This document shows positions 37,696 to 51,520 of a DNA stretch of 64,000 nt, piece by piece. The position numbers and the translations under genes are program-made. Below the pieces are notes generated by a model. The model was not told the DNA's origin. It made no database searches and worked only from the letters and a program-made list of their open reading frames with translations. Source of the stretch: a virus; the UHGV virus genome UHGV-0211740. One strand, written 5' to 3'. The stretch's first letter is position 1, and every line of letters begins with the position of its first letter.

Positions 37696-37703
37696 AGGTG
37701 TCC

Positions 37704-38051
37704 TCAGTAAATGTTCTGTTTAATCTCTATTCCAAACTTTTTGAACGAATCTGCAGCAAGCATAAATTTACGAGCTGCCGATGGGTTAGAAGTATGCACG
37801 AAAATCTTCACGTTGTCAACCACAGGTGGCTTGCCAAATACAAATAGCTCTTCCAGTCTCAATAAAACAGCATATCCGTCTTGATCAGAGTCTTCACCCA
37901 AATCGTGGTCAAAGAACCACTCTGTCACTCTTCGATACATTTTAGCAGAATTATTAAGAAACTCCATAGCCTCTTGTGAGGTTTTAAACCAAATTGCATC
38001 TGCCTGTCCGTAGTCAGCTGGGTTACGCAAATCATCTATCCAAACTTTCAT
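37704..38051 (-). CDS. hypothetical protein
   Basis: 115-aa ORF immediately upstream of the Sir2 gene. Confidence 0.4.
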   Translation of the reverse strand: MKVWIDDLRNPADYGQADAIWFKTSQEAMEFLNNSAKMYRRVTEWFFDHDLGEDSDQDGYAVLLRLEELFVFGKPPVVDNVKIFVHTSNPSAARKFMLAADSFKKFGIEIKQNIY

Positions 38052-38059
38052 ACATACCT

Positions 38060-38668
38060 CTAAAAATTTTCTATCGGTGTTTTTGAAGATAAAGCTAAAA
38101 CTATCTTATTCTCAATTCTTCGTAATCCTAATAGCAACCTACTATCATCTACAGTTTTAATCAAGTCTCTAAGAAGTTGCAGTTTACATTCTAAGTATCT
38201 CATGTGTGCCTCAATCTGCGTGGGGAAGGTTCCAAGATAAACCTGCGTGTCCTTAACCCCATCTTTGCAATAGGCAGCAAAAGATGGGCCTTTTCTTCTT
38301 ACTCCCATCAAACACTCCCCTCTTTGCGGCATCCTTGCTACAAAGAAGTTGTTTATTTCCCGGGGAACAAAAATACACGCTTCTGGGCAGTATATAAGAT
38401 TATTCTCGAAGAGAATATCTTTATCTAAAAATTTATCCCGCCAATCTTGTTTTTCCATCCAACGCTTGAAGTTGCTGAAGATTTTCCATTCTTCACAAAC
38501 TTCTACCATAGCATAAGCTTCAAATTTCTTGTTTTTAAGGTAGCACCTCCCTAGCATATTTGACCACGTCATATAAAAAGGACACATTATTCTCTTTCCA
38601 GTATCCTTGTCCAAAACCCTGACAGGATAGTCTGCATCATTAACACCAACACCATGTACAAGTTTCAT
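38060..38668 (-). CDS. putative homing-endonuclease-like protein with AP2-type DNA-binding segment
   Basis: YLGTFPTQIEAHMRY resembles the AP2 domain found in phage HNH homing endonucleases; weak. Confidence 0.35.
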   Translation of the reverse strand: MKLVHGVGVNDADYPVRVLDKDTGKRIMCPFYMTWSNMLGRCYLKNKKFEAYAMVEVCEEWKIFSNFKRWMEKQDWRDKFLDKDILFENNLIYCPEACIFVPREINNFFVARMPQRGECLMGVRRKGPSFAAYCKDGVKDTQVYLGTFPTQIEAHMRYLECKLQLLRDLIKTVDDSRLLLGLRRIENKIVLALSSKTPIENF

Positions 38669-38712
38669 ACAGACCTCTTAAGCTGAAATGATTAAAAAGA
38701 ACTTCCCCTTCT

Positions 38713-39669
38713 TCATTGCATATAGTCCTCGTTGTGGAAATAGTAGTCAAGTATCTCACGACGTTCCTGCTCAAGGAGGCAGTTCCACACATCCTCTGTG
38801 TAGTTGTTACGAATGAAGTTTACCATGCCATAAAACTCTTCGTCAATACGTTTAAAGATATCCTCATCCCAAATCTTCCAAGCTCTCCCTCTCATTACGG
38901 CCTTCCGTGCCAGGTAGTATGGAGATTTGATCTTCAACTGCAGGTCATAAGGGTAGTAAGGATTACGGATCATGTACCCTTCGCCCCTTGTTTCTGCAGC
39001 TAATTCTTTTGCATAGCTGAACGGAATTTCACGCACAGTGTGAGGACGTTTTGCACCAAGATACTTGGCAATACCGTCTAAAGCCGCTTCTGGTAGCATT
39101 ATTCCAGAATCATTGTATCTACAACCTATCAAATACGCACCATGATCCTCATGAACAATATGCGGGTCTGAAGGGTGACAAATTTCAAACATAAATGTCA
39201 TGTTTTCATGGCCCATAACCTTCTTGATAAGATCTAAATTGCCACATTGCTCCTGAATGGTTTCCTTTGCAAGGTTACAATATGGAGAATCAAGAGACCC
39301 AGTCGTTGAGAATAATAGTTCACCTTTATGAGAGGATACCACGCCAAGGAACCCGTTCTTTTTCTCTACAGCCGTCACAAGCTTATTGTCAGGTAGGTTG
39401 GTTGAGTTTTCTCCCAAGTTAAACACTTTTGTGAAGGGCCATGCCACAACATTCCCCTCGTTACCGACAACAATGCCTCGGCACTCCAGTAGACGCGGAG
39501 AAAAATGCCATAAATTGTTGTAGAATACTTTTCTGGCATATTTGTAGATCTTTAATCCGAGATCTGGATAATACCGACTGGTTACAAGACCTTTATCCAC
39601 TAAATCATCTGCATTAAAATACTTCATCATGCGTTCCTCATTTGTCATTTTGTTCCACAATCTTCCCAC
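38713..39669 (-). CDS. RNA ligase, Rnl1 (T4 RnlA) family
   Basis: LLECRGIVV, KVFNLGEN, motif I VEKKNGF, motif IV EGYMIR and motif V LKIKS line up with T4 Rnl1. Confidence 0.75.
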   Translation of the reverse strand: MGRLWNKMTNEERMMKYFNADDLVDKGLVTSRYYPDLGLKIYKYARKVFYNNLWHFSPRLLECRGIVVGNEGNVVAWPFTKVFNLGENSTNLPDNKLVTAVEKKNGFLGVVSSHKGELLFSTTGSLDSPYCNLAKETIQEQCGNLDLIKKVMGHENMTFMFEICHPSDPHIVHEDHGAYLIGCRYNDSGIMLPEAALDGIAKYLGAKRPHTVREIPFSYAKELAAETRGEGYMIRNPYYPYDLQLKIKSPYYLARKAVMRGRAWKIWDEDIFKRIDEEFYGMVNFIRNNYTEDVWNCLLEQERREILDYYFHNEDYMQ

Positions 39670-39748
39670 ACAAACAGTATCATGTCAACACTTGAAATGC
39701 TCAAAAGAACACGGTATACTGTCGTTAAAATTAAAACGGAGGGTCGCT

Positions 39749-40159
39749 ATGTCTAAAATGCTATATATCGTGCGTGGTCTACCAGGGTCTGGCAAATCAA
39801 CACTGGCAAATGCGTTATCTTTAGAAGGTCTGTATCCACATTTTGAGAACGACATGTTCTGGTACGACGATGATGGAAATTACAACTGGGATGCAAGTAA
39901 AGTGACACTTGCTGCAAAATGGTGCAAAGATAATATAGAAGATATGATGCGTATGGGGTACGACCGTGTCGTGGTAAGCAACACATTCACAAAAGAAAAG
40001 CATGTGCAAGAGTATATTGACATGGCGATCCGTAATGGGTATAATTACACAGTAATCGTGGTGGAGAATCGCCACGGTAACAAAAGTATCCACAATGTTC
40101 CAGAAAAGGTTGTGGATCGTATGGAACGTGAACTGAAAAACTGTATTAAACTTAAATGA
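39749..40159 (+). CDS. P-loop kinase, putative polynucleotide 5-prime kinase
   Basis: Start refined to the ATG after a GGAGGG RBS; Walker A VRGLPGSGKST like the T4 Pnk kinase domain. Confidence 0.55.
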   Translation: MSKMLYIVRGLPGSGKSTLANALSLEGLYPHFENDMFWYDDDGNYNWDASKVTLAAKWCKDNIEDMMRMGYDRVVVSNTFTKEKHVQEYIDMAIRNGYNYTVIVVENRHGNKSIHNVPEKVVDRMERELKNCIKLK

Positions 40160-40166
40160 GGATAGT

Positions 40167-40721
40167 ATGAAATATTTTATAACAAGTGACACACACTTTC
40201 TCCACCAGCGTGTTATGGAGTTCGATTCTTGTCAAAAGCACAGATCGCAGTATAACCACGATCTTGATAGCATGAATGCAGGGATCATAGACAAGTGGAA
40301 CTCAATTGTGTCACCATGGGACACTGTGTTCCACTTGGGAGACATTGCATGCACTAAGGATAAGAATATCAACAACTTACTGCCTGAAATTCTAAATATG
40401 CTGAACGGACATATTATTCTTGTTCGTGGTAACCATGACACAAGGACGACTGTCAGAATTATGAAAGAGTTCTGTCATGAGGTTGTAGATTATTACGAGC
40501 TTCGCCACAACAAGAATCTGATCTGTATGAGCCATTACCAGTTTGCAACGTGGAACAGAAAGCCCCACGGATCAGTTCAACTGTTTGGTCATGCTCACGG
40601 AACCACACAACAGTTATTTGGCAGGCAGTTGGATGTTGGTTGGGATGTATGGGGTAGACTGTTACCACTAGAAGAGGCATACAGCCTTGCAATGAGTTTT
40701 GATATTGACAGCAGGGAGTAA
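40167..40721 (+). CDS. calcineurin-like metallophosphoesterase
   Basis: Motifs SDTHF, LGDIA, RGNHD and GHAHG of the binuclear metallophosphoesterase fold. Confidence 0.7.
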   Translation: MKYFITSDTHFLHQRVMEFDSCQKHRSQYNHDLDSMNAGIIDKWNSIVSPWDTVFHLGDIACTKDKNINNLLPEILNMLNGHIILVRGNHDTRTTVRIMKEFCHEVVDYYELRHNKNLICMSHYQFATWNRKPHGSVQLFGHAHGTTQQLFGRQLDVGWDVWGRLLPLEEAYSLAMSFDIDSRE

Positions 40722-40768
40722 TCCCTGCTATATTAAAGAAAATAGCCACACAAGGAGAATCAGGAGAT

Positions 40769-41119
40769 ATGAAAGATGAGGATAAGCTGCCCTATCTTAA
40801 AGTCCCACTTGGGATACTTTCTCTGTCGAAAGTTTTGAATACTACAACTGGAGAGGTGGTTATTCTTGATCTGTATGACAAGGTAGTATACTGCTACCTG
40901 CACAACTGGTATAAGCTTGGAGGAAATTCACGATTCACACCGAGCACAAGGAAAATTGCAGCTGATACAGGGATTAAGAAAACAAAAGCAGCAGAATGCG
41001 TTAGAACTTTAGAGTGTGCGGGGATAGTTGAAACTTCCACACAAGGGAGAGGGAAAAGATGCACATTTTCTAAAGTTTTACCACCAGAAGAAGTGATTCG
41101 CATGTCAACAACTGGTTAG
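40769..41119 (+). CDS. hypothetical protein, possible winged-helix DNA-binding protein
   Basis: 116 aa; STRKIAADTGIKKTKAAECVRTLECAGIV resembles a wHTH; lies just upstream of the palindrome array. Confidence 0.35.
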   Translation: MKDEDKLPYLKVPLGILSLSKVLNTTTGEVVILDLYDKVVYCYLHNWYKLGGNSRFTPSTRKIAADTGIKKTKAAECVRTLECAGIVETSTQGRGKRCTFSKVLPPEEVIRMSTTG

Positions 41120-41195
41120 ACCAGTAAAAACTTAAATATTTGTATTATAAAGGTATGTATGTTTTATGTCCACACCAGCACAAAGATTACAAACT

Positions 41196-41274
41196 GTCCG
41201 TGAGACGGACACTACTGTCCGCCACGCGGACACATCTGCCCGTAATACGGACACTAACTGTCCGTGATACGGAC
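41196..41274. promoter_or_regulatory. array of four 15-bp palindromic operator-like sites
   Basis: GTCCGTGAGACGGAC, GTCCGCCACGCGGAC, GCCCGTAATACGGAC and GTCCGTGATACGGAC at 41196, 41217, 41238 and 41260; 21-22 bp periodicity. Confidence 0.55.
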
Positions 41275-41779
41275 ACATAAAGAATATAACTAAAATAACT
41301 AAAGAATAAAAATAAAAAGATCTAGTACTTATTGTACTAAAGTGCATATACTTAACTTATGTAGAATATACTAGATCTAAAGTACTATGTTTTAAATTTA
41401 TTACTTACTGGTATAGTGTCGGCCCTTCATTGGCACTCGCCTATGAGGGGCGAGATGCCGGGCCTCCATAGTGCACACAATAACAGGCGTGCATACGTGC
41501 ATGGCTGTTCACATGTGTGGGAGCGAAGCTATAGCGCAGGCCAAAGGCCGAGCACTAATGTGGACCGCCGACGAAAGCTTGCCAGCGCAGTAAGGAGTCG
41601 GTTGGGAGTCTCCCGCGCGAGTTTGTTTAAAGTTTATGTGTGGAAACTGGCAAGAAGGCCTCTAAATCGCTCTACAGCTGTGTGAACTACACTGGGTAAG
41701 GCAATCACACCAGTTTGATAGAAAAGCTCGTTACAAAGCGATACAGTGAGTTTTTCTATAACCTGAAGAGGAGTCAGCT

Positions 41780-42358
41780 ATGAGCTCACGCAAACATGAC
41801 CGAGAAAAGATTGCAAAACGTTATCAGGATGAAGAACAGATGGAGAAAACTTTCAAGTGGAGGCCAGGTTTCCAGCGCAATCATTCGGACGCTCGTGATC
41901 GTAAGCATCCAGATAAGTGGTTAACACCGCCAAACGATGACATGCAAGTCGGTGATGAGAAGGAGTTGTCACCGGGGAAAGATGGCAACTACATTCGCAC
42001 TAAGGAAGCTGGTCCAAAGGATGACAGCTATCTTGTAGATAAGGTTCTTGCTAGTATTGATGTAGATGTTGATACTGTACGAGACACTTTCCTTGGTTGG
42101 TATCGCACAGGGTTTTTCGACATCAAGGCTATTCGTCGTGTTTGCGATATTAAAAAGTCTGCCTACGATGACGACTCTCTACATCGCACTCTAAGACAAT
42201 ATTCAGAGAGATACGGTCATCCAGTTATCACTCTTGACGATATTAACGAAGTGATGTATCATGTAGAGGTTGTTGCAGGTAGGTTCGGTGATGCATATCT
42301 CGGTATTCTTTCTGCAAAGGATGAGGTAATGTTAAATAAAATTTACTATGAACGCTGA
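41780..42358 (+). CDS. hypothetical protein
   Basis: 192-aa ORF, first long plus-strand ORF after the control region. Confidence 0.5.
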   Translation: MSSRKHDREKIAKRYQDEEQMEKTFKWRPGFQRNHSDARDRKHPDKWLTPPNDDMQVGDEKELSPGKDGNYIRTKEAGPKDDSYLVDKVLASIDVDVDTVRDTFLGWYRTGFFDIKAIRRVCDIKKSAYDDDSLHRTLRQYSERYGHPVITLDDINEVMYHVEVVAGRFGDAYLGILSAKDEVMLNKIYYER

Positions 42359-42557
42359 GGAGCGCTTAATGAACAACCCGGTAGCAAAGAACTGCAATAA
42401 GTTCAACAAGCCTGCAATTCACACTGACAGGAAAAAGAGCTGGTCTCCGGATATTGACGAGGAGCTTGAGGATTACTTCGAAGGCTTGGCCCTTAATGCA
42501 GATGAGATTGCGATTAAAGAGTACGCAGACAGGAAGGATAAGGCCGGAATCTGTTGA
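42348..42557 (+). CDS. hypothetical protein
   Basis: 69-aa ORF overlapping upstream stop. Confidence 0.35.
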   Translation: MNAEERLMNNPVAKNCNKFNKPAIHTDRKKSWSPDIDEELEDYFEGLALNADEIAIKEYADRKDKAGIC

Positions 42558-42582
42558 CAAAAACAGTGTTACCTGATAAGAT
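42554..42582 (+). promoter_or_regulatory. sigma70 consensus-like promoter
   Basis: TTGACA, 17-bp spacer, TAAGAT; upstream of 42634. Confidence 0.45.
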
Positions 42583-42633
42583 CTGCAATATGATGTGATG
42601 CAATTTTAACTTACGAGGTCTACAGGTAATGCT

Positions 42634-42876
42634 ATGTTTAAGGTTAAGCTCGTTTTTCGTTCCATGAATGAGGATTATTTAGAAGATGAAGGTGAATTTC
42701 GTGCGCTAGATGATGCAATAGATTTTGCCAACGACTTAGCTTGTATGAATACTGGATACGGGTTATGTTGTTGGGATGGCGGTGTTCAGATCGGTGACAG
42801 CAAGATTTTCTACTTCTACCCTGAGCCAGATAACAAACAAATTAAGTATGTTTTATTTATTTGCGCTTTACAATGA
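42634..42876 (+). CDS. hypothetical protein
   Basis: 80-aa ORF. Confidence 0.45.
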   Translation: MFKVKLVFRSMNEDYLEDEGEFRALDDAIDFANDLACMNTGYGLCCWDGGVQIGDSKIFYFYPEPDNKQIKYVLFICALQ

Positions 42877-43164
42877 GGTTGTTTTCATGTATGATGATGA
42901 ATATCCAATTTAAAGACGAATTTGATGGCTTTATCTCCGGATGCTTTGAAACAGGATTCGGAGAAGGCTGAGTTCCCCCTAGAGGGCTTGATAGTGCACC
43001 ACACTTAAAATGGTAGGGGCAGCCAGCACATGACGATGTGACCCCAGCCAACCTGTAATAAGGTCGAGCCCAAGCGCGGTAATGGGTCTCTGGTAACCCA
43101 CTTGTTGGGTCTTGCTGGTCCAGGACGCTGGACAAGTCGCAGGGAACACCACCCTGCGGCGAAC

Positions 43165-43193
43165 TTGACAATTAGTATCTGCCGTGATAAAAT
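43165..43193 (+). promoter_or_regulatory. sigma70 consensus-like promoter
   Basis: TTGACA, 17-bp spacer, TAAAAT; upstream of 43222. Confidence 0.45.
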
Positions 43194-43221
43194 CCACCTA
43201 TCACGTGATAATGGAGGAAAC

Positions 43222-43563
43222 ATGGCGGATACAACTAAAAAGCGTCGCCGTAGAGGCAGACCTCTGAAAGAGGAGTCCAACGCCATTCAGCTAGAGAAGA
43301 ACATTCTTGATATGAAGGAATCTTTTATAGCGATGGTTCCAGAAGCTCATAAAGTTCTAAGAGAGCTGATGTTGGATCCGAAAACCAAACAAAATATTCG
43401 TCAAAGCATTGCAGAGTATGTCCTTGACAAGGCAGACAGAATGCAGGAAGAATATGATGAGATGTTTGGTGAAGAGGAAGAAGAGGTGGTAGTAGAAGAG
43501 GCTGAAAAACCAGCACCTTTTATGCCGTTTACCACCGAAATACAGCCTGTTAGTAACAGTTAA
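43222..43563 (+). CDS. small DNA-binding protein with AT-hook-like motif
   Basis: Start refined to MADTTKK after a GGAGG RBS; KRRRRGRPLK AT-hook-like segment and acidic C-terminus. Confidence 0.45.
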   Translation: MADTTKKRRRRGRPLKEESNAIQLEKNILDMKESFIAMVPEAHKVLRELMLDPKTKQNIRQSIAEYVLDKADRMQEEYDEMFGEEEEEVVVEEAEKPAPFMPFTTEIQPVSNS

Positions 43564-43572
43564 AATATTTTC

Positions 43573-43601
43573 TTGACAAACTTTGCTTAACAGTGTAATA
43601 T
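43573..43601 (+). promoter_or_regulatory. sigma70 consensus promoter for the tRNA cluster
   Basis: TTGACA at 43573, 17-bp spacer, TAATAT at 43596. Confidence 0.5.
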
Positions 43602-43659
43602 TATAAATATGGTCTCCCACCTTTTCTGGCGGCTCAGGTGTAAAAGAAAGCCACCCAGT

Positions 43660-43734
43660 GCCCTGTTAGCTTAGTGGATAAAGCAGCGGCCTTCTAAGCC
43701 GTTGACACTGGTTCGAGTCCAGTACGGGGTGCCA
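43660..43734 (+). tRNA. tRNA-Arg (anticodon TCT)
   Basis: 7-bp acceptor stem, T-arm CTGGTTCGAGTCCAG, anticodon loop CTTCTAA, 3-prime CCA encoded. Confidence 0.75.
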
Positions 43735-43738
43735 AATC

Positions 43739-43825
43739 GGGGAGTTATACCGTAGAGGTAGCGGTGTAGACTGTAAATCTATTGTCATTGCGACTCGGGT
43801 GGTTCGACTCCATCACTCCCCACCA
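43739..43825 (+). tRNA. tRNA-Tyr (anticodon GTA)
   Basis: Acceptor GGGGAGT/ACTCCCC, anticodon loop CTGTAAA, long variable arm, T-loop GGTTCGACTCC, CCA encoded. Confidence 0.75.
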
Positions 43826-43936
43826 AAATCCCATATTTGTGATAAATAATATAGATAATGACATTGATGTTTATCGTCGTTTATACTAGTCCCTAACTGT
43901 TCGAAAATCAGTGTCATTATCAGTGTTGTTTATAAA

Positions 43937-44026
43937 AGAGAGTAGGGAGCATGGTGCTCAAGCGGTCTTGAAAACCGTCCCGTTGAGATATCCTCGATGA
44001 TGGTTCGATTCCATTACTCTCTGCCA
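43937..44026 (+). tRNA. tRNA-Ser (anticodon TGA)
   Basis: Perfect 7-bp acceptor AGAGAGT/ACTCTCT, anticodon loop CTTGAAA, long variable arm, T-loop TTCGATT, CCA encoded. Confidence 0.75.
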
Positions 44027-44124
44027 GATCGTGGATCATGAAATTAAGCGAGCGCCGGAAGCAGAACCGGATTAACAAATGTTACAGTCGTCATCGCCGA
44101 CTAGCAGCATGATCCACATAATAT

Positions 44125-44221
44125 GCTAGGTAAGCCCTTTGGCAAGGGCGAGGATTTTTAATCCTGAAAATAGACGAAGCAGTCGTTGAATACATAGGTG
44201 GTTCGATTCCATCGCCTAGCA
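44125..44221 (+). tRNA. atypical 97-nt tRNA-like gene (possible pseudo-tRNA or non-canonical tRNA)
   Basis: Perfect acceptor stem GCTAGGT/GCCTAGC and canonical T-arm GGTGGTTCGATTCCATC, but no clean 5-bp anticodon stem with 7-nt loop (closest is AGGA/TCCT with loop TTTTTAA) plus about 30 nt of extra internal sequence; no encoded CCA. Confidence 0.35.
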
Positions 44222-44228
44222 CCTTTTT

Positions 44229-44304
44229 GCTGATGTAGCACAATTGGTAGTGCAATTGATTTGTAATCAATAGGTTGCAGGTTCAAGTCCTGCCATCAGC
44301 ACCA
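44229..44304 (+). tRNA. tRNA-Thr (anticodon TGT)
   Basis: Acceptor GCTGATG/CATCAGC, anticodon stem-loop ATTGA-TTTGTAA-TCAAT, T-loop GGTTCAAGTCC, CCA encoded. Confidence 0.8.
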
Positions 44305-44305
44305 T

Positions 44306-44380
44306 GTCCCTGTAGCTGGAAGGTTCAAGCAAGCGACTCATAATCGCCAGACGGTGGTTCAATTCCACCCAGGGCCACCA
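44306..44380 (+). tRNA. tRNA-Met or Ile2 (anticodon CAT)
   Basis: Acceptor GTCCCTG/CAGGGCC with one mismatch, anticodon loop CTCATAA, T-arm GGTGGTTCAATTCCACC, CCA encoded. Confidence 0.7.
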
Positions 44381-44391
44381 AATTATAAATA

Positions 44392-44468
44392 CTCCGCGTA
44401 GCTCAGCTTGGTAGAGCGCCTGATTTGGGATCAGGAGGTCGAGTGTTCGAATCACTCCGTGGAGACCA
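44392..44468 (+). tRNA. tRNA-Pro (anticodon TGG)
   Basis: C1-G72 acceptor CTCCGCG/CGTGGAG, D-arm AGCTCAGCTTGGTAGAGC, anticodon loop TTTGGGA, T-loop GTTCGAATC, CCA encoded. Confidence 0.8.
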
Positions 44469-44511
44469 ATTTCACTATACCTTAAACATATATACAAAAG
44501 GAATCCTAAAA

Positions 44512-44781
44512 ATGTATACACTTAAAATTGTAGAACGTGTAAATCCAACCCATACTGTAGATTTTCGTGACGATTTCAACCCTCTTGCTGTAAATCTTCG
44601 AGAGTCGTATCATGAACTAAGCTGCGATGCAGTAGTGGTCTTCTTTGAAGACAACTCTGAAGGGGCAGTAGCTTGTGTTGTCGATAGCGAGCAGAAGTTT
44701 TATATTTACAGAGATGTGGATGCTTACTTGATGAATGAGAATGCAGTTACTGTTAGAATCATCCACCGAGTGCCTCGATAA
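44512..44781 (+). CDS. hypothetical protein
   Basis: Start refined to the internal ATG (MYTLKIV) immediately after tRNA-Pro; 89 aa. Confidence 0.45.
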   Translation: MYTLKIVERVNPTHTVDFRDDFNPLAVNLRESYHELSCDAVVVFFEDNSEGAVACVVDSEQKFYIYRDVDAYLMNENAVTVRIIHRVPR

Positions 44782-44886
44782 GTATTAGTCTCCTTTTAGT
44801 TAGTTTAGATCTATTTAGGTTACTCAATTTTAACCCGCCCCGTTAGCTGTATGGCTGCGGGGTTTTTTCGTTTCTGGAGCCGTAAA

Positions 44887-45285
44887 ATGATTTCAGTTTT
44901 AACATGGCTGGGCAGGTATAAAGGGGTCATAAAAGGTTTAGTTTTTGCAGCAACTCTTGGTATAGCCTATCTTGGTGCCGTATATTGGTTTAATTCTAAG
45001 CTTGACACTGCTTACCAGGAGGGTGTGACAGCAACAGAGTTGAAGTGGGAACGGATCCTTGATCAGCAACAAAAGCAAGCTGACAGGATTAAAATGGGCC
45101 ATGCAGAGGAGGTTAAAAACCTTGAAAAATCCCTTTCTGACCTGCAGGATAAATTAAGTATAGCTGAGAAGGCAGGTAAAGAAAAGCAGATTATTTACCT
45201 CCAATCGCCTGAAGGTAAGAAGTCAACACTTCCTGATCAGCTTATAGAGATTTATAATGAGAGTATCAATCAGGAGGGTCGATGA
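44887..45285 (+). CDS. putative i-spanin (Rz-like)
   Basis: Start refined downstream of a terminator-like hairpin; N-terminal TM VIKGLVFAATLGIAYLGAVYWF followed by a coiled-coil periplasmic domain. Confidence 0.5.
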   Translation: MISVLTWLGRYKGVIKGLVFAATLGIAYLGAVYWFNSKLDTAYQEGVTATELKWERILDQQQKQADRIKMGHAEEVKNLEKSLSDLQDKLSIAEKAGKEKQIIYLQSPEGKKSTLPDQLIEIYNESINQEGR

Positions 45286-45569
45286 GAGTTGCTGCACTAC
45301 TTATTATGTGCTTGTTATTATGTGGGTGTACAACCAGCGTTGAGAGAGAATACAAGATTGACCCTCCGGATGTAGGGAGGTTGATTGTTAAACCACCAGA
45401 GGGTGCCATGAAACCACCTGCTAAAGCCGTGCCTTTGAAGAAGGGTGCCCCGGATGCGGTGAATTCTGGCATTATGAGGGATAATAACCTATCTTGCAGT
45501 AATGATAGAGCTAAATTAATCATTTTGCAAGACTATATTAGAACACTGTTTCCAAAGGAGAGAGGTTAA
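45282..45569 (+). CDS. putative o-spanin (Rz1-like lipoprotein)
   Basis: Lipobox LLLCGC near the N-terminus, proline-rich mature region, overlaps i-spanin stop. Confidence 0.55.
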   Translation: MRVAALLIMCLLLCGCTTSVEREYKIDPPDVGRLIVKPPEGAMKPPAKAVPLKKGAPDAVNSGIMRDNNLSCSNDRAKLIILQDYIRTLFPKERG

Positions 45570-45994
45570 TGTCTAAGATTTACGGACCGTGTTCTGAAAA
45601 GCAGAAGATGATCCTGGAAAATGATGCAGATATTTTGGTAATTGGCGGGGCTGCAGGATCTGGCAAGTCATTCCTCTTGCAGCTAATGCCGCTTAAAATT
45701 ATTGATGACCCGCACAGCTCTGTGGTTATGTTCCGAAGAACAACCCCACAGTTGGAAGGTGAGGGGGGACTATGGCCTAAAGCAGTAGCTATTTATAGTG
45801 ATCTGCCAGAAAACATTAAGCCAAAGTTTAGAGAGAAGGATCATAAGTTCATTTTTCCACGGTTTGATCCGAGCACTGGCAAGTGGGACAGGAGCAAAAA
45901 GGGAGCTGTTGTAAAATACTGCCACATGGAATATGTCCAAGATAAGCTTAACCATCAGGGTTTGGAATACACCATGGTTTGCTTCGATGAGGGT
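45569..45994 (+). CDS. terL: terminase large subunit, exon 1 (ATPase N-terminal part)
   Basis: Walker A GGAAGSGKS and Walker B MVCFDE; reading frame terminates at a TAA that begins the intron. Confidence 0.75.
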
Positions 45995-46877
45995 TAATTT
46001 GTAGCTCTCGTAAAACCTCCCTAATTGCGGGGAAATCTTTATTATTGACACCACCAATCTGTCATGGTAACATGATAGAGGCTTCGAAGAGAGATCGAAG
46101 GTATGGTAACAGTGTGTTAATTTAGATAATCCGCAGCGAAGCATCCGAGAGGATGAACGTTCAACGACTAGTCGAAAGACGTAGAATCAAGCGATTCGAA
46201 ACGGGAGGGTGCATGTGTAATACTAAAAAATGTATGGATTGCCAAAGAGTTCTACCTATTGATGATTTCTTTTTATCATCTAAGAGCAAGGATGGATACT
46301 CAGGTACATGCAAGGAATGCTATATGTACTACAGGAAGGGTGGATCTCGTAAAAACAAAAATATGGTTAAGAGAGATGACGCAGCATTGTTTATTCAAGA
46401 CTTGCTGAAGAAAGGTGAACTTTTTGAATGCAAATCTTGTCATAAAAGTATGCTCGCTGATAGTTTTTACACAAAACGTGACTATGGCAAAGTATATCTG
46501 GTTACGAACAGGTGTAAGATGTGTGAAAAGTTTTATCAGATTGAGAAGAAATTTCACATAACAAAAGATGAATACTATCGTCTACTCTCAGATCAAGATC
46601 ATAAGTGTGCCATTTGTAGAATATCTCTTGATGAGTATAGGACGCAAGGGTACAGAGATTTCTTTTGTGTTGATCATGACCATAAAACTGGTGCTGTAAG
46701 AGGGTTGCTTTGTGATAAATGCAACAGAGCTTTAGGCTTCTTCCAAGAAGATGAGGAAACTATTCTTAAAGCGGCAGAATATTTACACATTCATAAGATA
46801 TAGTCTGGTCTGCATGGAGACATGCAGCTGCCTGAAAATGGCGGGGCAAGACTAGCGACCTTGCCCGAACATAAACG
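45995..46877 (+). mobile_element. group I self-splicing intron carrying a homing endonuclease ORF (3-prime boundary approximate)
   Basis: Core elements in canonical order: P AATTGCGGGGAAA (~46030), Q AATCCGCAGC (46128), R GTTCAACGACTAGTC (46159), S AAGATATAGTCTGG (46795); internal guide GCTCTC pairs with exon end GAGGGT. Confidence 0.65.
46153..46803 (+). CDS. intron-encoded homing endonuclease, Endonuclease VII/HNH-like
   Basis: Cys-rich N-terminus and CVDHDHKTGAVRGLLCDKCN Endo VII core; ORF lies between intron R and S elements; true start may be an internal ATG. Confidence 0.65.
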   Translation: MNVQRLVERRRIKRFETGGCMCNTKKCMDCQRVLPIDDFFLSSKSKDGYSGTCKECYMYYRKGGSRKNKNMVKRDDAALFIQDLLKKGELFECKSCHKSMLADSFYTKRDYGKVYLVTNRCKMCEKFYQIEKKFHITKDEYYRLLSDQDHKCAICRISLDEYRTQGYRDFFCVDHDHKTGAVRGLLCDKCNRALGFFQEDEETILKAAEYLHIHKI

Positions 46878-47999
46878 ACACAATTCGAATGGGAGCAGAT
46901 AGACTATCTGATGTCTCGTTTGCGATCTCAGTCAAAGTATCCATCAAGAATGGTTATCAGCTGTAACCCCGACTCAGAGCATATGCTTGCCAAACTGGTT
47001 AGATGGTGGCTGGACGATGAAGGGTATCCAGATCCGGAGAAATGTGGCAAGAAAAGATATTTTATCCGGCGTGACGGTGAATTTATTTGGGGAGACTCTA
47101 AAGAGGAGTTGATAGAGAAATACACCACAGTTAATGGACTGGGTGTGGAGATCAAGCCAAGACCGTTGTCATTCTCGTTTATAGGCGCAACAATATTCGA
47201 TAATCCTGTCTGCTTGAGAGACAACCCAGAATACCTTGCTTTCCTTGAAGGTCTGCCAGAACTGGAAAAAGCTCAGCTTCTTCATGGTAACTGGTTTGCC
47301 AAACCTGAGGGTGCGAACTACTTTCAAAGATCTTTCCTTCGTGATGCCGACAGCGTACCTTTAGGGTCTGTGTCTTGCAGGGCATGGGATAAAGCTGGAA
47401 CTGAAAGAACTTCAGGTAATAAATTCCCTGACTTTACTGCCAGTGTCAAGGTAAGTAAAGATAGTGATGGATTCTACTACCTGTCAGGAGATTATTGTCC
47501 GGAGAACGTGGATGACGGGAGATATTCCACAGGTCTGGAAGGCAAGTTCTGTAAAAAGGCTGGCGAACGAGATGTGATCATCAGGAAACAGGCGCAGTTT
47601 GATGGTGATGATTGTATAATCGTATTCTCTGTGGACCCCGGTCAGGCAGGTAAGAGTGAGTTCTTAACCTCATCCAGATCCTTGCTCGCCGAAGGTTTCA
47701 GGGTTGAAGAAGACCCAATGCCTTCCAACAAATCTAAACTGACAAGGTTCTCACCTTTTGCCAATCTTGCCCAACAAGGGATGGTGAGGATTGTAAAATC
47801 CAGTTTCCATCCTGATACTTTGGAAGCATTTCTGACTGAACTTGAAAAGTTCAACGGGGAAAGATCAACATTTAACAGAAAAGACGACTGGGCCGACTGT
47901 GTAGCATCTGCGATTAATTTCCTGGAGAAAGAGGAGGTAGCACTGCCTTGTGTGATCCCATCAATATCATCACCTTCTATGTTTAAGCGTTTTATCTAA
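46878..47999 (+). CDS. terL: terminase large subunit, exon 2 (ATPase C-motif and nuclease domain); exon start approximate
   Basis: In-frame continuation with no stops from 46875; contains VISCNP coupling-motif-like segment and C-terminal nuclease-like acidic residues; possible splice acceptors after G at 46877, 46892, 46895 or 46898. Confidence 0.65.
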   Translation, partial: TQFEWEQIDYLMSRLRSQSKYPSRMVISCNPDSEHMLAKLVRWWLDDEGYPDPEKCGKKRYFIRRDGEFIWGDSKEELIEKYTTVNGLGVEIKPRPLSFSFIGATIFDNPVCLRDNPEYLAFLEGLPELEKAQLLHGNWFAKPEGANYFQRSFLRDADSVPLGSVSCRAWDKAGTERTSGNKFPDFTASVKVSKDSDGFYYLSGDYCPENVDDGRYSTGLEGKFCKKAGERDVIIRKQAQFDGDDCIIVFSVDPGQAGKSEFLTSSRSLLAEGFRVEEDPMPSNKSKLTRFSPFANLAQQGMVRIVKSSFHPDTLEAFLTELEKFNGERSTFNRKDDWADCVASAINFLEKEEVALPCVIPSISSPSMFKRFI

Positions 48000-48099
48000 G
48001 TGTTGCCAATCTTGATCAGATGTGGTACAATAGAGTAATTGGAGATACTAGCCCTCTGACGAGGGCTATTTTGTTATACTGTTTTGAGGGGTAAAGCTT

Positions 48100-49656
48100 G
48101 TGTCCAAAAAGAACCGCAGGAAACACAACGCCACAGCCAAAACTGTGAATAAATCTGGGAACGCAGGCGCACCAACTCATAATGTTCGTATGAGTGAGAT
48201 CGGTTCTGGCGCACTTTCCCAAATTATGGCAGAATCGCAATCTATGATGGTTGAGGAATTGCGTTGGCCTCAGCTGATTGCCACAGTGGAGACTATGAAA
48301 TGTGATTCCACAGTTGCTACTGCCTTAGATACAAAATATGTTTTCATCACGAAAGCATTTAATGATTTTAAGATCCTTTATAATGTTAAAAGTGAAGACT
48401 CTAAGAAAGCTGCCGAGCTTATAGAGTATTCTTTGCATAATTTGGCAAACCAACAAACTCTTCGAGATATTGCAAGAAGCGCAGCTACCTTTAACGAGTA
48501 TGGTTTTTCACTGTTTGAGAAAGTATACCGCAGAGAGAAAGAAGGTAAATACGCCGGGATGCTTCTTATTGATAAAATTGCATTCCGACCTCAGGCCAGT
48601 CTGTCCAGATCAGAGCCGTTTGTCTTTGACAAGAACAGTAGAACACTGACAGGTATTTATCAGTCACCTAATGCATTTCTAAACAATCAGAATGCACGCT
48701 GGGCTGGACCTCTTGCTGCAATGCCTTCAAAAGGCTTTAATGAGCCTGAAATTTTCATTCCTGCTAAAAAGCTTATGCTCATGACCCTGTCAGGAACAGA
48801 ATCTAATCCTGCAGGTGTGTCACCGATGATAGGTTGCTACAGATCTTTCCGTGAGAAAGTTCTGATTGAAAACCTTGAGGTTGTTGGCTGCTCCAAAGAC
48901 CTTGGTGGTGTGCTTGAGCTGAAAATTCCTTCCAATATTTTGAATAAGGCCAGTATTGACCCGAATTCGATGGAAGGGAGAATGGTTGCAGATCTGATGC
49001 TTGACGCAGCAAACGCCCACAGTGGTGAGCAAAGTTTCTTTATACTTCCGTCTGATAGGGATAAATCTGGTAAAGAGCTTTACTCTATGACCCTGAAGGG
49101 GGTTGATGGTATTGGTAAGCAGTATTCCACTAAAGATCTGATTGATGCCCGTAAGAAGGCGATTCTTGACCGTTTCGGTGCTGGCTTTATTAACCTCGGT
49201 AACGATAACGTTGGATCCTTCTCTCTGTCTGAGTCAAAACAATCTATCCATGGTCATTTTGTTCAGCGTGATATAGATATTATCACCGAGGCCTTCAATA
49301 AAGATCTTATTCCACAGCTTCTGGCATTGAATGGTATCATCCTTGAAGATGATGATATGCCTAAACTGAAACCCGGTCTGATTGAAGAAGTGGACATGGA
49401 GAGCTTCTCCAAGTTTGTCCAGAGGATCGGTGCTGTAGGTTACTTGCCAAAAACTCCTGCAGTAATTAATAAGATTCTTGAAGTAGGCGGGTTTGATGAA
49501 AGATTTGACGAGGACATGGATCAGGAAGAGCTGATGAAGCTCTTGGGCCAGGATATCAGCAGGGCTGGTGATGGAATGGCTGCAGGATCCACTGGAAACG
49601 GCACTTCTAAGATGTCATCAACCAGAGATAATTCCGTATCCAACATGGAAAATTAA
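48100..49656 (+). CDS. portal protein
   Basis: 518-aa ORF (GTG start) immediately downstream of terminase; size and position typical of portal. Confidence 0.65.
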   Translation: MSKKNRRKHNATAKTVNKSGNAGAPTHNVRMSEIGSGALSQIMAESQSMMVEELRWPQLIATVETMKCDSTVATALDTKYVFITKAFNDFKILYNVKSEDSKKAAELIEYSLHNLANQQTLRDIARSAATFNEYGFSLFEKVYRREKEGKYAGMLLIDKIAFRPQASLSRSEPFVFDKNSRTLTGIYQSPNAFLNNQNARWAGPLAAMPSKGFNEPEIFIPAKKLMLMTLSGTESNPAGVSPMIGCYRSFREKVLIENLEVVGCSKDLGGVLELKIPSNILNKASIDPNSMEGRMVADLMLDAANAHSGEQSFFILPSDRDKSGKELYSMTLKGVDGIGKQYSTKDLIDARKKAILDRFGAGFINLGNDNVGSFSLSESKQSIHGHFVQRDIDIITEAFNKDLIPQLLALNGIILEDDDMPKLKPGLIEEVDMESFSKFVQRIGAVGYLPKTPAVINKILEVGGFDERFDEDMDQEELMKLLGQDISRAGDGMAAGSTGNGTSKMSSTRDNSVSNMEN

Positions 49657-49724
49657 AAAATTATCAACACAGGGGGTTGCAAAACCTCCTTTGGCGTGAT
49701 AAAATAATCCACATGGGGAATAAG

Positions 49725-50144
49725 ATGCCACAGGAAGAAATGATTTCCTACGAAATCATCTACGAACCTGACACTAAAGATGCTCACGGTGAGTGGATGA
49801 GTAAAGACACCATCAAAAAGGCTAAAGACAACTGGGACGCAGCATACGCCGCAGGACTGGTTTCTGAAAACCTCTTTCACTTGACTTCTACAGATGCTTT
49901 CACTATTGAAAAAACGTGGATTCAAGAAGAGTTTGATGTTGTAGTAATTGGCACTGAGCAGGTCATCAAGGCTGGCTCTTGGGTTGCTAAAGTTAAATAC
50001 AATAATCCTGAGTTATGGGAAGCTAAGAAGGCTGGCATTGTTGGTGGCCTAAGTATTCAGGCAACTGGTAATGTTGATGAAGAAACTGGAGAGATCACCA
50101 ACGTAAATTTCGGGATCAGTGTTGTAGAAGAGGGCAATGAGTAA
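49725..50144 (+). CDS. head-module protein of unknown function
   Basis: Start refined to MPQEEM after a GGGG RBS; located between portal and scaffold. Confidence 0.4.
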   Translation: MPQEEMISYEIIYEPDTKDAHGEWMSKDTIKKAKDNWDAAYAAGLVSENLFHLTSTDAFTIEKTWIQEEFDVVVIGTEQVIKAGSWVAKVKYNNPELWEAKKAGIVGGLSIQATGNVDEETGEITNVNFGISVVEEGNE

Positions 50145-51124
50145 TGTCTGAAAAAACAATCACTATTAAAGAGAAAGGGATTGCCCTGTGCCATAAGGCG
50201 CAAGGCTATAGCGCTAACAATCGACCTGTATCTCTTTTAATGAAGAGCGATCTTCAGCCTGAGCAGTTGACAGAGGATATTGTTAAGGCTCTTCGCCAAG
50301 TCACTGTGGAGCTTAGTTTTGAAGAATACCTGCGTCGTTTCTTCGATATGTGGTATGACGATGCTAAGGCACTGGCTCACCTGCTCGGGTTCGAGATTGA
50401 GGAAGAAGCTTGGGCAAAAGAACACCCAGATTGGGAGTGGGCGCAGGCTGATGCAGAGGCTTGTGTGCAGTGGTTAGAAGAACGTTGTGACAACGTAACC
50501 ATTCACAAAGCTGCTAAAGAAGGTAAAGATTTAAGTATTGTTGACCAATACACTCTGTTAAAAACCCAACAAGTTTTTGAGCAGATGACCGCTGATCTCT
50601 TCGATGAAGAAGGGAAACTTATTAAAGCGGCACAGGAAACCACAGAAGAGGTTGTTACTGATGCTGTGGACAATGTTGATAAATCCGCAAATACCGAGGA
50701 GAATCCGGTGGAAGACGTAACCAAGTCTCAAGAGTACCTGGACCTGCTGAAACAGTTCGAAGAACTGAAGGCTACCAATGAAAAAGCTGAAGAAATCATC
50801 AAGGCTCAGGTAGAAGTTGAAAAAGCTAAAATGCTGGAAAAAGCTCAAGCGTTAAGCTTCGCTACTGAAGAAGATCACACAACTCTGGTCGAATTCATGC
50901 TGGACAAAGCTAATGCTTCTGTTGTTGCATTGCTGGAAAAAGCCCAAGCTCGTATTGCTGAACTGGAAGCTGAAGTTGAAAAAGCTAAAGATGAGTTCGC
51001 AACTACCGAGCAAGGCAAAGATGGTGATGTCGTAGTAGATGACATTGCTAAATCTGCTGAAGATATTATTGCTGAAAACGTCGCTAAAGCTCTGGCTCGT
51101 GCACGTAAAGAATCTAATAAATAA
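50144..51124 (+). CDS. putative scaffolding protein
   Basis: 326 aa, highly acidic, long coiled-coil stretch (AELEAEVEKAKDEF); position between portal and capsid genes. Confidence 0.5.
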   Translation: MSEKTITIKEKGIALCHKAQGYSANNRPVSLLMKSDLQPEQLTEDIVKALRQVTVELSFEEYLRRFFDMWYDDAKALAHLLGFEIEEEAWAKEHPDWEWAQADAEACVQWLEERCDNVTIHKAAKEGKDLSIVDQYTLLKTQQVFEQMTADLFDEEGKLIKAAQETTEEVVTDAVDNVDKSANTEENPVEDVTKSQEYLDLLKQFEELKATNEKAEEIIKAQVEVEKAKMLEKAQALSFATEEDHTTLVEFMLDKANASVVALLEKAQARIAELEAEVEKAKDEFATTEQGKDGDVVVDDIAKSAEDIIAENVAKALARARKESNK

Positions 51125-51142
51125 TTTGCGTAATAGGGGAAA

Positions 51143-51520
51143 ATGATGATCACCACTCAATATTCTGATATCGTGCTCGGCAAAGTAGATGCAAGCGATG
51201 CAGGTTTCAACTTTAAAGAGATTGAAATTACCCTTACTGCTGATCACGTTGCTGGCGCAGTAGTTACCAAAACTGGCACTCTGGCTAATCAAGATGGCAC
51301 AGATACCTTTGGTGTACTGGTTGACCGCGCTCTTCTGCCTGACGATTCTGGTAAAGTTAATCTGGCAGAGCCTCTGAAAGTTGGCGAGAAGTATAAACTG
51401 GTTGTTGCTGTTCGTGGCGTTACTTTCGCTAAAAAACATCTGAAAGTGGCTGGCGGTACGGCTGCACCTGCTGCAGTTCTGGAAGCTCTCGAAGCCAAAG
51501 GCAACAAAGTTCAGGAATAA
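51143..51520 (+). CDS. putative head decoration protein
   Basis: 125 aa directly upstream of the major capsid gene, as for lambda gpD; host-optimised codon usage. Confidence 0.45.
   Translation: MMITTQYSDIVLGKVDASDAGFNFKEIEITLTADHVAGAVVTKTGTLANQDGTDTFGVLVDRALLPDDSGKVNLAEPLKVGEKYKLVVAVRGVTFAKKHLKVAGGTAAPAAVLEALEAKGNKVQE

What the first reader, a model, noticed from the sequence alone, without database searches (positions are those of the whole stretch)
44031..44117. Perfect 10-bp inverted repeat enclosing a 67-nt segment with a basic micro-ORF between tRNA-Ser and the tRNA-like gene
GTGGATCATG (44031) and CATGATCCAC (44108) are exact reverse complements flanking 67 nt. The segment contains an in-frame ATG to TGA micro-ORF of 24 codons (MKLSERRKQNRINKCYSRHRRLAA). 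It may be a processing hairpin for the polycistronic tRNA transcript, a small RNA, or a tiny basic peptide gene.
Basis: seen in the sequence. Interest (0 to 1): 0.4.

Follow-up and report, generated by a model that had tools for sequence, protein, structure and literature searches.

The report
Conserved structured RNA in phage tRNA operon
The 10-bp inverted repeat is the closing stem of a roughly 90-nt folded RNA that is unannotated, absent from Rfam, and shared almost unchanged by rV5-like phages, P1/D6-like plasmid-prophages and phage lambda; it is not a peptide gene, and its function is still unknown.

Summary
The repeat alone is not statistically unusual. Comparative data are what make it real.

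The 67-nt interior is about 82% identical to an unannotated stretch of phage lambda (44852-44946, between tR' and S). It also matches a stretch just after tRNA-Ser(UGA) in D6/P1-like plasmid-prophages. The flanking stem has a different sequence in each lineage but still pairs. All 9 modelled P1 pairs show changes on both sides, including compensations within lineages.

Two inner hairpins complete a three-helix module. P2 is invariant and P3 has one clearly covarying pair.

There is no Rfam 15 match, no annotation in any record, and no paper in the library holds the core 16-mer. The micro-ORF is lost in the closest relatives, so the peptide reading is rejected.

Most likely this is a self-contained structured RNA module. 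It would be cut out of polycistronic phage transcripts and act through its near-invariant core. That mechanism is inferred, not shown.

The parts
44027..44121 (+). Whole structured RNA module (extent of the covariance-model match)
   Evidence: Model R1 scores 90.7 bits, E 2e-19, and this is the only hit in the 64-kb window. MFE folding of the tRNA-Ser-to-tRNA-like precursor keeps it as an independent domain.
44031..44040 (+).
   Evidence: Pairing is kept with different sequences in rV5, L119, L209, lambda-type and D6-type copies.
44108..44117 (+).
44041..44054 (+). J1/2 junction strand AAATTAAGCGAGCG. AATTAAGCGA is invariant in all but one copy (L052 has AACTAAGCGA); the last 3 nt are variable.
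   Evidence: Alignments.
44055..44070 (+). P2 hairpin CCGG[AAGCAGAA]CCGG, invariant
   Evidence: Predicted by MFE and RNAalifold. It never varies, so covariation neither supports nor refutes it. Two exclusion scans of viral contigs, one per helix, found no variant.
44071..44080 (+). J2/3 junction strand ATTAACAAAT; three variable positions, AAAT invariant
44081..44105 (+). P3 arm: 2-bp base (G44081-C44105, T44082.G44104), internal loop, stem AGTCG/CGACT (44086-44090 / 44098-44102), 7-nt loop TCATCGC (44091-44097)
   Evidence: RNAalifold predicts it independently. Pair 44088/44100 is U-A in rV5-type copies and G-C in lambda/D6-type copies. The base pair 44086/44102 is A-U, G-C or A.C.
44106..44107 (+). 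J3/1 (AG), short variable linker
44038..44112 (+). 24-codon micro-ORF: present in this window but not a conserved gene
   Evidence: It is disrupted in rV5, L102, phiWec196, L119 and all lambda/D6-type copies.
43937..44026 (+). tRNA-Ser(UGA) with encoded CCA, 4 nt upstream of P1: the 5' processing boundary
   Evidence: The same tRNA-Ser-then-module arrangement occurs in D6-like plasmid-prophages.
44125..44221 (+). Atypical tRNA-like gene 7 nt downstream of P1: the 3' processing boundary
   Evidence: Rfam tRNA 29.4 bits. ARAGORN calls it 'tRNA-??? (atcc)' in relatives.

Best explanation
The inverted repeat is helix P1 of a roughly 90-nt three-helix RNA module (P1, P2, P3, joined by long A/U-rich junction strands). 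The module is always transcribed in the sense orientation inside highly expressed, untranslated phage transcripts: tRNA operons in rV5-like and D6-like phages, and the late-operon leader in lambdoid phages.

Shown:
- The fold is conserved, and P1 is maintained by compensatory changes.
- The interior is conserved at 82%, against 88% for the adjacent tRNA-Ser in the same comparison.
- The module recurs in three unrelated phage lineages with unrelated flanks.
- It is not coding.

Inferred: in the window, RNase P cleavage at the 5' end of the downstream tRNA-like gene and 3' maturation of tRNA-Ser would release the spacer. P1 would clamp both ends against exonucleases, leaving a discrete stable RNA of about 87-95 nt. 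Its near-invariant junctions and loops would be the working surface, most likely bound by a factor common to E. coli hosts (a protein or RNA partner, i.e. a decoy or regulator). On this reading the module does not act merely as a passive hairpin.
For: Conservation and fold:
- The core matches lambda 44866-44934 and D6 7056-7120 at about 84-86% by blastn, while the flanks are unrelated.
- On 33 distinct sequences, P1 has 9 of 9 pairs with changes on both sides and 93.6% of cells paired. No shuffle of 500 reached the observed covariation score, and versions slid by 1-3 columns drop to 26-51% paired.
- Compensations occur within lineages. Window versus rV5 differs at two pairs (G-C/U-A and U-A/C-G). 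L119 has A-U where the window has U-A. L209 has only G.U wobbles. Lambda-type copies switch GUGCU/AGCAC to GUGGU/ACCAC, and L113 changes two further pairs.
- RNAalifold recovers P1, P2 and P3 independently.
- Between the window and the D6-like locus L005, the core is 82% identical. tRNA-Ser is 88%, and tRNA-Arg, Thr and Met are about 70%.

Context:
- The orientation always matches the tRNAs or the late transcript. The module follows tRNAs in rV5-like, D6-like, L057 and L085 loci.
- The module folds as an independent domain within the precursor.
- In lambda, the northern-blot probe for the about 63-nt Hfq-bound lytic-cycle sRNA LPR2 maps to lambda 44816-44850. That is 6 nt upstream of P1, so this leader is processed into discrete small RNAs (bioRxiv 10.1101/2024.10.31.621285; sequence).
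Against: - No expression or end-mapping data exist for the module itself in any phage.
- P2 and all loops are invariant, so only P1 and one or two P3 pairs are tested by covariation.
- The family is narrow: Enterobacteriaceae phages only. Invariance could therefore partly reflect recent horizontal transfer.
- Between-lineage P1 differences could come from capture into different pre-existing hairpins rather than from compensation. Only the within-lineage cases are clean.
- Two prophage copies (L033, L042) are recombinants with a broken P1.
- No partner is identified. The lambda RIL-seq study reported only LPR2 and 6S RNA as further Hfq-bound sRNAs there, which weakly suggests the module is not an Hfq sRNA.
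- The covariation alignment was fitted to the model, which biases pair counts toward the structure.
Confidence: 0.45

Rival explanations
1. A cis-acting processing, 3'-end-formation or insulator module. The compact fold presents two A/U-rich single strands (AAUUAAG and CAAAUGUUACAG). These would act as an entry or cleavage site for a host endonuclease such as RNase E, or would simply keep the spacer from misfolding with its neighbours. The effect would be clean separation of the upstream RNA (tRNA-Ser in rV5/D6, the LPR2 hairpin in lambda) from what follows. On this reading the module has no trans function.
For: It always lies directly 3' of a functional small RNA: 4 nt after the tRNA-Ser CCA in the window, after tRNA-Ser in D6, and 6 nt after the LPR2 probe region in lambda. 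The invariant AAUU just after P1 fits the RNase E RN|WUU preference (own knowledge). The other spacer of this operon, Tyr-Ser, is also a conserved long hairpin.
Against: Host tRNA operons need no such module. A nuclease entry site would not require about 50 invariant positions that include a hairpin stem and both loops. No cleavage data exist.
Confidence: 0.25
2. A new catalytic or ligand-sensing RNA. Either a self-cleaving ribozyme that cuts at its own edge to free neighbouring RNAs, or an aptamer whose P1 forms only when a ligand or tRNA is bound. In lambda-type copies the P1 5' strand has an alternative upstream partner.
For: A variable closing helix around a near-invariant multi-helix core is the usual signature of ribozymes and aptamers. 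A possible 4-bp pseudoknot, GCGA (J1/2) with UCGC (the P3 loop), can be read from the sequence. In lambda, L057 and L085 an upstream segment GCACAACAGGTAAGAGCA is complementary to the 5' flank plus the P1 5' strand, so two exclusive pairings are possible.
Against: No match to any Rfam ribozyme or riboswitch at E up to 10. There is no consistent downstream gene to regulate. The pseudoknot is untested because both partners are invariant. The rV5-type copy has no alternative partner for P1.
Confidence: 0.08
3. An Hfq-type base-pairing sRNA of the prophage STnc100/PasD kind, which occupies the same late-leader slot in lambdoid phages.
For: In D6 the module is followed by an STnc100-like element (RF02076, 39.6 bits, E 2e-7). 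Lambda's 5' flank plus P1 5' strand (AGCCAGTGCTCTTTCCGTTGTGCTGAAT) is homologous to the D6 junction that opens that element (alignment score 31 against a shuffle mean of 15.8, sd 2.4). STnc100 lies in Stx-phage late operons, 75 nt after stx2B (PMC12370729).
Against: The core itself gives no STnc100 hit at E up to 10, and its alignment to the STnc100-like interior scores no better than shuffles. There is no intrinsic terminator or U-tail after P1. The module was not among the Hfq-bound lambda sRNAs reported.
Confidence: 0.07
4. No RNA function. The module would be a hitch-hiking or recombination-linker DNA segment at mosaic junctions of phage genomes, with the stem being incidental.
For: Lambdoid copies have several different 5' and 3' flanks that begin right at the module edges. 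L033 and L042 are hybrids of D6-type and lambda-type flanks. The distribution is narrow and looks like horizontal transfer.
Against: Compensatory double substitutions within lineages keep P1 paired. Orientation relative to transcription is constant. The interior is conserved at a level between those of the neighbouring tRNAs, while the immediate flanks have been completely replaced.
Confidence: 0.1
5. A gene for a 24-aa basic peptide (MKLSERRKQNRINKCYSRHRRLAA).
For: The ORF exists in this window.
Against: The start is lost in rV5, L102 and phiWec196 (TTG TAA) and in the closest relative L119 (ATT). A 1-nt indel shifts the frame in lambda/D6-type copies. Variation is not in a 3-nt periodic pattern. 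The ATG is buried in P1 and no Shine-Dalgarno sequence is present.
Confidence: 0.01

Closest known systems
Phage T4 stable RNAs species 1 and 2 (rnaC, rnaD) in the T4 tRNA cluster
   Same: Small structured non-tRNA RNAs encoded inside a phage tRNA gene cluster and co-transcribed with tRNAs, with function still unknown (positions from the T4 annotation; the biology is from own knowledge).
   Different: No sequence or structure similarity. Model R1 gives no hit on rnaC or rnaD (best 11.3 bits, on an unrelated stretch), and blastn finds no T4-like match. The T4 RNAs are longer (139 and 119 nt). Their reported tRNA-like ends are recalled from memory and were not tested; no such feature was seen in this module.
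STnc100 (Rfam RF02076) / PasD prophage sRNAs
   Same: They occupy the same genomic slot, the late-operon leader between Q and the lysis genes of lambdoid phages. They share the architecture of a closing helix followed by (G)AAU around a multi-hairpin interior. In D6 an STnc100-like element directly follows the module, and lambda's P1 frame is homologous to that element's frame (bioRxiv 10.64898/2026.05.13.724894).
   Different: The interior is unrelated: there is no CM hit and no significant alignment. STnc100 and the Pas sRNAs end in an intrinsic terminator, which this module lacks.
Lambda LPR2 sRNA (Silverman et al., bioRxiv 10.1101/2024.10.31.621285)
   Same: It is the immediately adjacent unit of the same lambda late leader. 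It shows that this leader is cut into discrete small RNAs during lytic growth.
   Different: LPR2 is the hairpin 5' of the module (probe at lambda 44816-44850). It is Hfq-bound and absent from rV5-like phages. The module itself (lambda 44852-44946) is not described there.
tRNA-spacer-derived regulatory RNAs such as 3'ETS-leuZ of E. coli (own knowledge)
   Same: These are functional RNAs released as by-products of tRNA operon processing. This is the mode proposed here for the window copy.
   Different: 3'ETS-leuZ is a short, Hfq-bound sponge with little structure. This module is a compact three-helix fold with no known partner.

Membership tests
tRNA / tRNA-like (RF00005) | Cloverleaf with T-arm abutting the acceptor 3' strand; detectable by ARAGORN or the Rfam tRNA model | tested here: not met
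   ARAGORN and Rfam find nothing at 44027-44121, although they do find the neighbouring tRNAs. The junction lengths read from the sequence are incompatible with a cloverleaf.
STnc100 (RF02076) | CM score at or above the gathering score of 47 bits | tested here: not met
   No hit at E up to 10 in the window or in lambda. Only the neighbouring D6 element hits (39.6 and 27.5 bits).
STnc100 (RF02076) | Intrinsic terminator at the 3' end | tested here: not met
   No terminator-like site after P1. The tail reads AUAAUAU.
Known small self-cleaving ribozymes and riboswitches in Rfam 15 | Match to the family covariance model | tested here: not met
   No such family appears at E up to 10 on either strand. 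No CUGANGA / GAAA hammerhead core can be read from the sequence.
Self-cleaving ribozyme (any class) | Site-specific self-scission in vitro | not testable with these tools
   Requires transcription and cleavage assays.
Hfq-dependent base-pairing sRNA | 3' hairpin with U-tail; Hfq enrichment; seed-target chimeras | tested here: not met
   The U-tail hairpin is absent. Hfq binding cannot be tested here. The lambda RIL-seq study listed only LPR2 and 6S RNA as further Hfq-bound sRNAs.
Small protein gene | ORF, start codon and reading frame conserved in relatives | tested here: not met
   The start is lost in rV5, L102, phiWec196 and L119. There is a frame-shifting indel in lambda/D6-type copies.
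MITE / IS-type element with terminal inverted repeats | Conserved terminal repeat sequence and target-site duplication | tested here: not met
   Only the stem sequence varies while the interior is conserved, and no flanking direct repeats are present.
Intrinsic terminator | GC-rich hairpin followed by a T-run | tested here: not met
   One search lists no site at 44031-44117.
Conserved structured RNA motif (generic criterion) | Helices supported by compensatory changes in independent sequences, on one transcribed strand | tested here: met
   P1 has 9 of 9 pairs with changes on both sides. P3 has one solid and one partial covarying pair. P2 is uninformative. Orientation is constant.

The most novel reading that the evidence does not exclude
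The module is a new functional RNA class carried by coliphages. One possibility is a self-cleaving or ligand- or tRNA-sensing RNA. The other is an RNA decoy that neutralises a host factor, for example a tRNA-targeting defence nuclease. The decoy reading fits its home among phage tRNA genes and, in rV5-like phages, its proximity to Pnkp and RNA ligase genes. If so, phage lambda has carried an undescribed functional RNA in its late leader.
Probability: 0.12. Interest if true: 0.85.

Novelty: new member of a known kind. Interest (0 to 1): 0.6.

Why it matters
A structured RNA conserved at a level comparable to that of neighbouring tRNAs is shared by a virulent myovirus, a plasmid-prophage and phage lambda. 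It is absent from Rfam 15 and from every GenBank and RefSeq annotation examined. It occurs in about 11% of complete E. coli genomes (589 of 5426).

Lambda genetics makes it directly testable through deletion and compensatory P1 mutants. Public lambda RNA-seq and RIL-seq data probably already contain its reads.

It adds to the recent picture that lambdoid late leaders and phage tRNA operons are arrays of small functional RNAs (6S, LPR2, STnc100/Pas, StxS). It may also explain why spacers in phage tRNA clusters are conserved.

Tried and rejected
- Peptide gene: rejected, because the ORF is not conserved.
- tRNA or pseudo-tRNA: no ARAGORN or Rfam hit.
- Any Rfam 15 family: none at E up to 10 on the window, lambda or D6 copies.
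- Promoter or terminator: none at the element.
- T4 rnaC/rnaD homology: no CM hit.
- Homologues after tRNA-Ser in a T5-like phage (Salmonella phage S132), or next to the tRNA-like gene of Avunavirus 24-2-1: none, with filters off.
- Wider family members:
  - The genome-contig scan returned only lambda contamination, chance matches and one Enterobacter prophage.
  - Exclusion scans for P2 or P3 variants in viral contigs found none or only coding-sequence chance matches.
  - The metagenome scan gave only rV5-type copies and one lambdoid copy.
- Literature: the core 16-mer occurs in no paper of the library. Searches on the lambda late leader, rV5 tRNA and phage tRNA spacers gave nothing on this element.
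- Homology of the core to the STnc100 interior: not significant.
- Ideas considered and dropped as unsupported or coincidental: integron attC-like site, DnaA box in the 3' arm, boxA-like TGCTCTTT in the lambda/D6 flanks, SRP-RNA-like GGAAGCAG, CsrA GGA sites, and the Ser codons UCA UCG in the P3 loop. Each is absent from at least one lineage, has the wrong polarity, or is too short to test.

Full report
**What is there.** The window is a Vequintavirus (rV5-like) genome segment, 92-94% identical to known members over 16 kb. The finding lies in the tRNA operon, which runs:
- promoter-like TTGACA-17-TAATAT at 43573-43601 (annotated as P(tRNA) in rV5)
- tRNA-Arg, tRNA-Tyr and tRNA-Ser(UGA) 43937-44026
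- a 98-nt spacer
- a tRNA-like gene at 44125-44221
- tRNA-Thr, tRNA-Met and tRNA-Pro

A perfect 10-bp inverted repeat with a short spacer is expected about 5.5 times per shuffled window, so the repeat alone proves nothing. The fold is only moderately better than shuffles (z = -3.2).

**The key result.** A sensitive blastn search with the spacer hit about 114 rV5-like phages across the whole spacer. It also hit phage lambda (44866-44934, between orf-64/tR' and S, unannotated) and the P1-like plasmid-prophage D6 (7056-7120), at 84-86% identity over the interior only.

In the four-way alignment the interior is nearly invariant. The flanking 8-10 nt are unrelated in sequence, yet in every case they form a helix:

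| Copy | 5' arm | 3' arm |
|---|---|---|
| window | GTGGATCATG | CATGATCCAC |
| rV5 | GTTGACCTTG | CATGGTCAAC |
| lambda | GTTGTGCTG | CAGCACAAC |
| D6 | ATTTGGCT | AGCCAAGT (extendable to 15 bp) |

I built a covariance model with three helices. It finds exactly one copy per locus, and one in the window at 44027-44121 (90.7 bits).

**Covariation.**
- On 33 distinct sequences, all 9 modelled P1 pairs show changes on both sides, and 93.6% of cells are paired.
- None of 500 shuffles reaches the observed covariation score. Sliding the 3' partners by 1-3 columns drops pairing to 26-51%.
- That alignment was fitted to the model and the lineages are few, so I rely mainly on clean within-lineage events read directly from the sequences:
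  - Window versus rV5 differs by two compensated pairs.
  - L119 flips U-A to A-U.
  - L209 and phiWec196 show only G.U wobble changes.
  - Lambda-type copies switch C-G to G-C, and L113 changes two further pairs.
  - D6-type copies switch G.U to A-U.
- RNAalifold independently predicts P1, P2 (CCGG[AAGCAGAA]CCGG) and P3 (stem with the 7-nt loop UCAUCGC, plus a 2-bp base).
- P3 has one solid covarying pair (U-A in rV5-type, G-C in lambda/D6-type). Its basal pair is A-U, G-C or A.C.
- P2 never varies and is therefore untested.

**Not coding.** The ATG of the micro-ORF is TTG followed by TAA in rV5, phiWec196 and L102. It is ATT in L119, the closest clade-mate. Lambda/D6-type copies differ by a 1-nt indel. 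Variable positions cluster in the junctions and show no 3-nt periodicity.

**Distribution and context.**
- Lineage 1: Vequintavirus, always tRNA-Ser(UGA) then module then tRNA-like gene. The module is absent from an Avunavirus that does have the tRNA-like gene, and from a T5-like phage with a related tRNA-Ser.
- Lineage 2: D6-like 90-kb phage-plasmids of E. coli, Salmonella, E. albertii and E. fergusonii (167 PLSDB records). Here too the module follows a homologous tRNA-Ser(UGA), in a cluster Arg-Tyr-Thr...Ser-[module]...Met that resembles the rV5 cluster.
- Lineage 3: lambda and many lambdoid prophages, in the late leader just after tR'. In some it lies downstream of tRNA arrays (L057 Ile-like/Arg/Gly; L085 Asn/Gly/Thr/Arg).
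- In total, 589 of 5426 complete E. coli genomes carry it, and it is never annotated.
- Orientation always matches the tRNAs or the late transcript.
- The family is narrow. GTDB genomes gave only lambda contamination plus one Enterobacter prophage. Metagenomes gave only rV5-type copies and one lambdoid copy.
- Between the window and a D6-like locus, the core is 82% identical. The adjacent tRNA-Ser is 88%, and tRNA-Arg, Thr and Met are about 70%. The spacer and stem are completely replaced. The interior is thus about as constrained as a tRNA.

**Relation to known RNAs.**
- No Rfam 15 family matches the module at E up to 10 in any of the three contexts, and no paper in the library holds its core 16-mer.
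- In D6 the module is followed by an STnc100-like element (RF02076, 39.6 bits) upstream of tciA.
- Lambda's 5' flank plus P1 5' strand is homologous to the D6 junction that opens that element. Further helix-framed units of the form 'GTTGTGNTG-(G)AAT ... CANCACAA', with unrelated interiors, occur in the D6-like tRNA region.
- The core itself is not significantly similar to the STnc100 interior.
- STnc100 and PasD are prophage sRNAs of unclear function that occupy the same late-leader slot in Stx phages.
- In lambda, the northern probe for the recently reported about 63-nt Hfq-bound sRNA LPR2 maps to 44816-44850. That is the hairpin immediately 5' of the module. The leader is therefore processed into discrete small RNAs, and the module is the next unit along, so far undescribed.
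- T4 rnaC and rnaD, the classic stable RNAs of a phage tRNA cluster, are not homologous.

**Mechanism.**
- Shown: a conserved RNA-level structure, sense-transcribed in highly expressed untranslated phage transcripts.
- Inferred, as my preferred reading (confidence about 0.45): tRNA maturation on both sides releases the spacer, and in lambda leader processing does the same. P1 clamps the ends, and a stable RNA of about 90 nt acts through its invariant junctions and loops on a factor common to E. coli hosts.
- Main rival (0.25): a purely cis-acting processing or 3'-end-formation module for the upstream RNA.
- Less likely: a new ribozyme or sensor (0.08). In lambda-type copies an upstream segment can pair with the P1 5' strand, giving two exclusive folds.
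- Less likely: an STnc100-type Hfq sRNA (0.07).
- Less likely: a functionless mosaic linker (0.10). Its support is the recombinant copies L033 and L042 with a broken P1.
- Least likely: the peptide (0.01).

Interest is 0.6. It is an unrecognised, tRNA-grade-conserved RNA in phage lambda and two other coliphage lineages, directly testable with lambda genetics, but its function remains unknown.

Noticed in passing
window 43845-43936: The Tyr-Ser spacer forms a long imperfect hairpin of about 26 bp, within a 31-pair predicted structure. It is conserved in rV5-like phages, with a compensatory double change in L119. It overlaps a promoter-like site, ATGACA-18-TATACT, at 43858-43887. It may be an RNase III-type processing site or a second structured spacer RNA.
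   Followed up: partly
window 44125-44221: An atypical tRNA-like gene with a long variable arm and anticodon loop TTTTTAA. It scores Rfam tRNA 29.4 bits, is missed by ARAGORN here, and is called 'tRNA-??? (atcc)' in relatives. GenBank records label it Lys, OTHER or TERM (suppressor). It also occurs in Avunavirus 24-2-1 (91.8%) and in Erwinia phage pEp_SNUABM_01, where it is annotated tRNA-TERM.
   Followed up: partly
L003 621-698 (lambda 44786-44863): Directly after tR', the segment GCACAACAGGTAAGAGCA is complementary to TGCTCTTTCCGTTGTGC, which is the 5' flank plus the P1 5' strand. The P1 5' strand therefore has two alternative partners. The LPR2 northern probe maps to the loop and 3' side of this hairpin. 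The same arrangement occurs in L057, L085 and the D6-like L005.
   Followed up: partly
L004 1586-1706; L005 3143-3263 (-): An STnc100-like RNA (RF02076, below the gathering score) sits upstream of the TerC-family gene tciA in D6-like plasmid-prophages. This is a context not reported for STnc100 in the papers read.
   Followed up: partly
L005 3460-3912 (-): The Thr-Ser spacer of D6-like plasmids contains further helix-framed units of the form 'GTTGTGNTG-(G)AAT ... CANCACAA' with unrelated interiors. This suggests a modular, cassette-like family of framed RNAs.
   Followed up: no
L003 764-776 (lambda 44929-44941): CAACAGCACAAC, the J3/1 linker plus the P1 3' strand of the lambda copy, is complementary to the GcvB R1 sequence GUUGUGUUGUUG as I recall it. 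This is reminiscent of the prophage anti-sRNA AgvB. The feature is absent from the rV5-type copy and the GcvB sequence was not verified here.
   Followed up: no
L125-L155 (genome-contig hits): Nineteen contigs from unrelated taxa (Pseudomonas, Shewanella, Bacillaceae, Bacteroidota and others) share one flank-inclusive stretch identical to lambda; the same stretch recurs truncated at a contig end in two more and with one mismatch in a third. Some contigs are about 48.4 kb. This is lambda control-DNA contamination in public assemblies.
   Followed up: yes
phage records MG065646-MG065690: Records named 'Campylobacter phage' carry the rV5-type coliphage tRNA operon at about 93% identity, and some are rV5-sized (~135-143 kb). 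They are probably mislabelled or contaminant genomes.
   Followed up: no
L033 4066-4160; L042: Recombinant copies with a D6-type 5' flank and a lambda-type 3' flank. P1 and one P3 pair are broken. These are either decaying copies or evidence that the conserved core serves as a recombination point.
   Followed up: partly
L113 10464-10612; L137 948-1021 (-): A SIB antitoxin RNA (111 bits) and isrJ (64 bits) lie a few hundred nt upstream of the module in two prophages. The late leader is crowded with RNA genes.
   Followed up: no
window 36000-52000 (annotations of relatives): Relatives annotate polynucleotide kinase/3'-phosphatase, RNA ligase 1 and a Sir2-like protein within this 16-kb stretch around the tRNA operon. 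This fits a tRNA-repair or counter-defence neighbourhood.
   Followed up: no
PLSDB records NZ_CP082339.1 and CP057073.1: A 48,502-bp lambda genome and a 137.6-kb record that carries the rV5-type module and is of rV5-like genome size are filed as plasmids in PLSDB.
   Followed up: no
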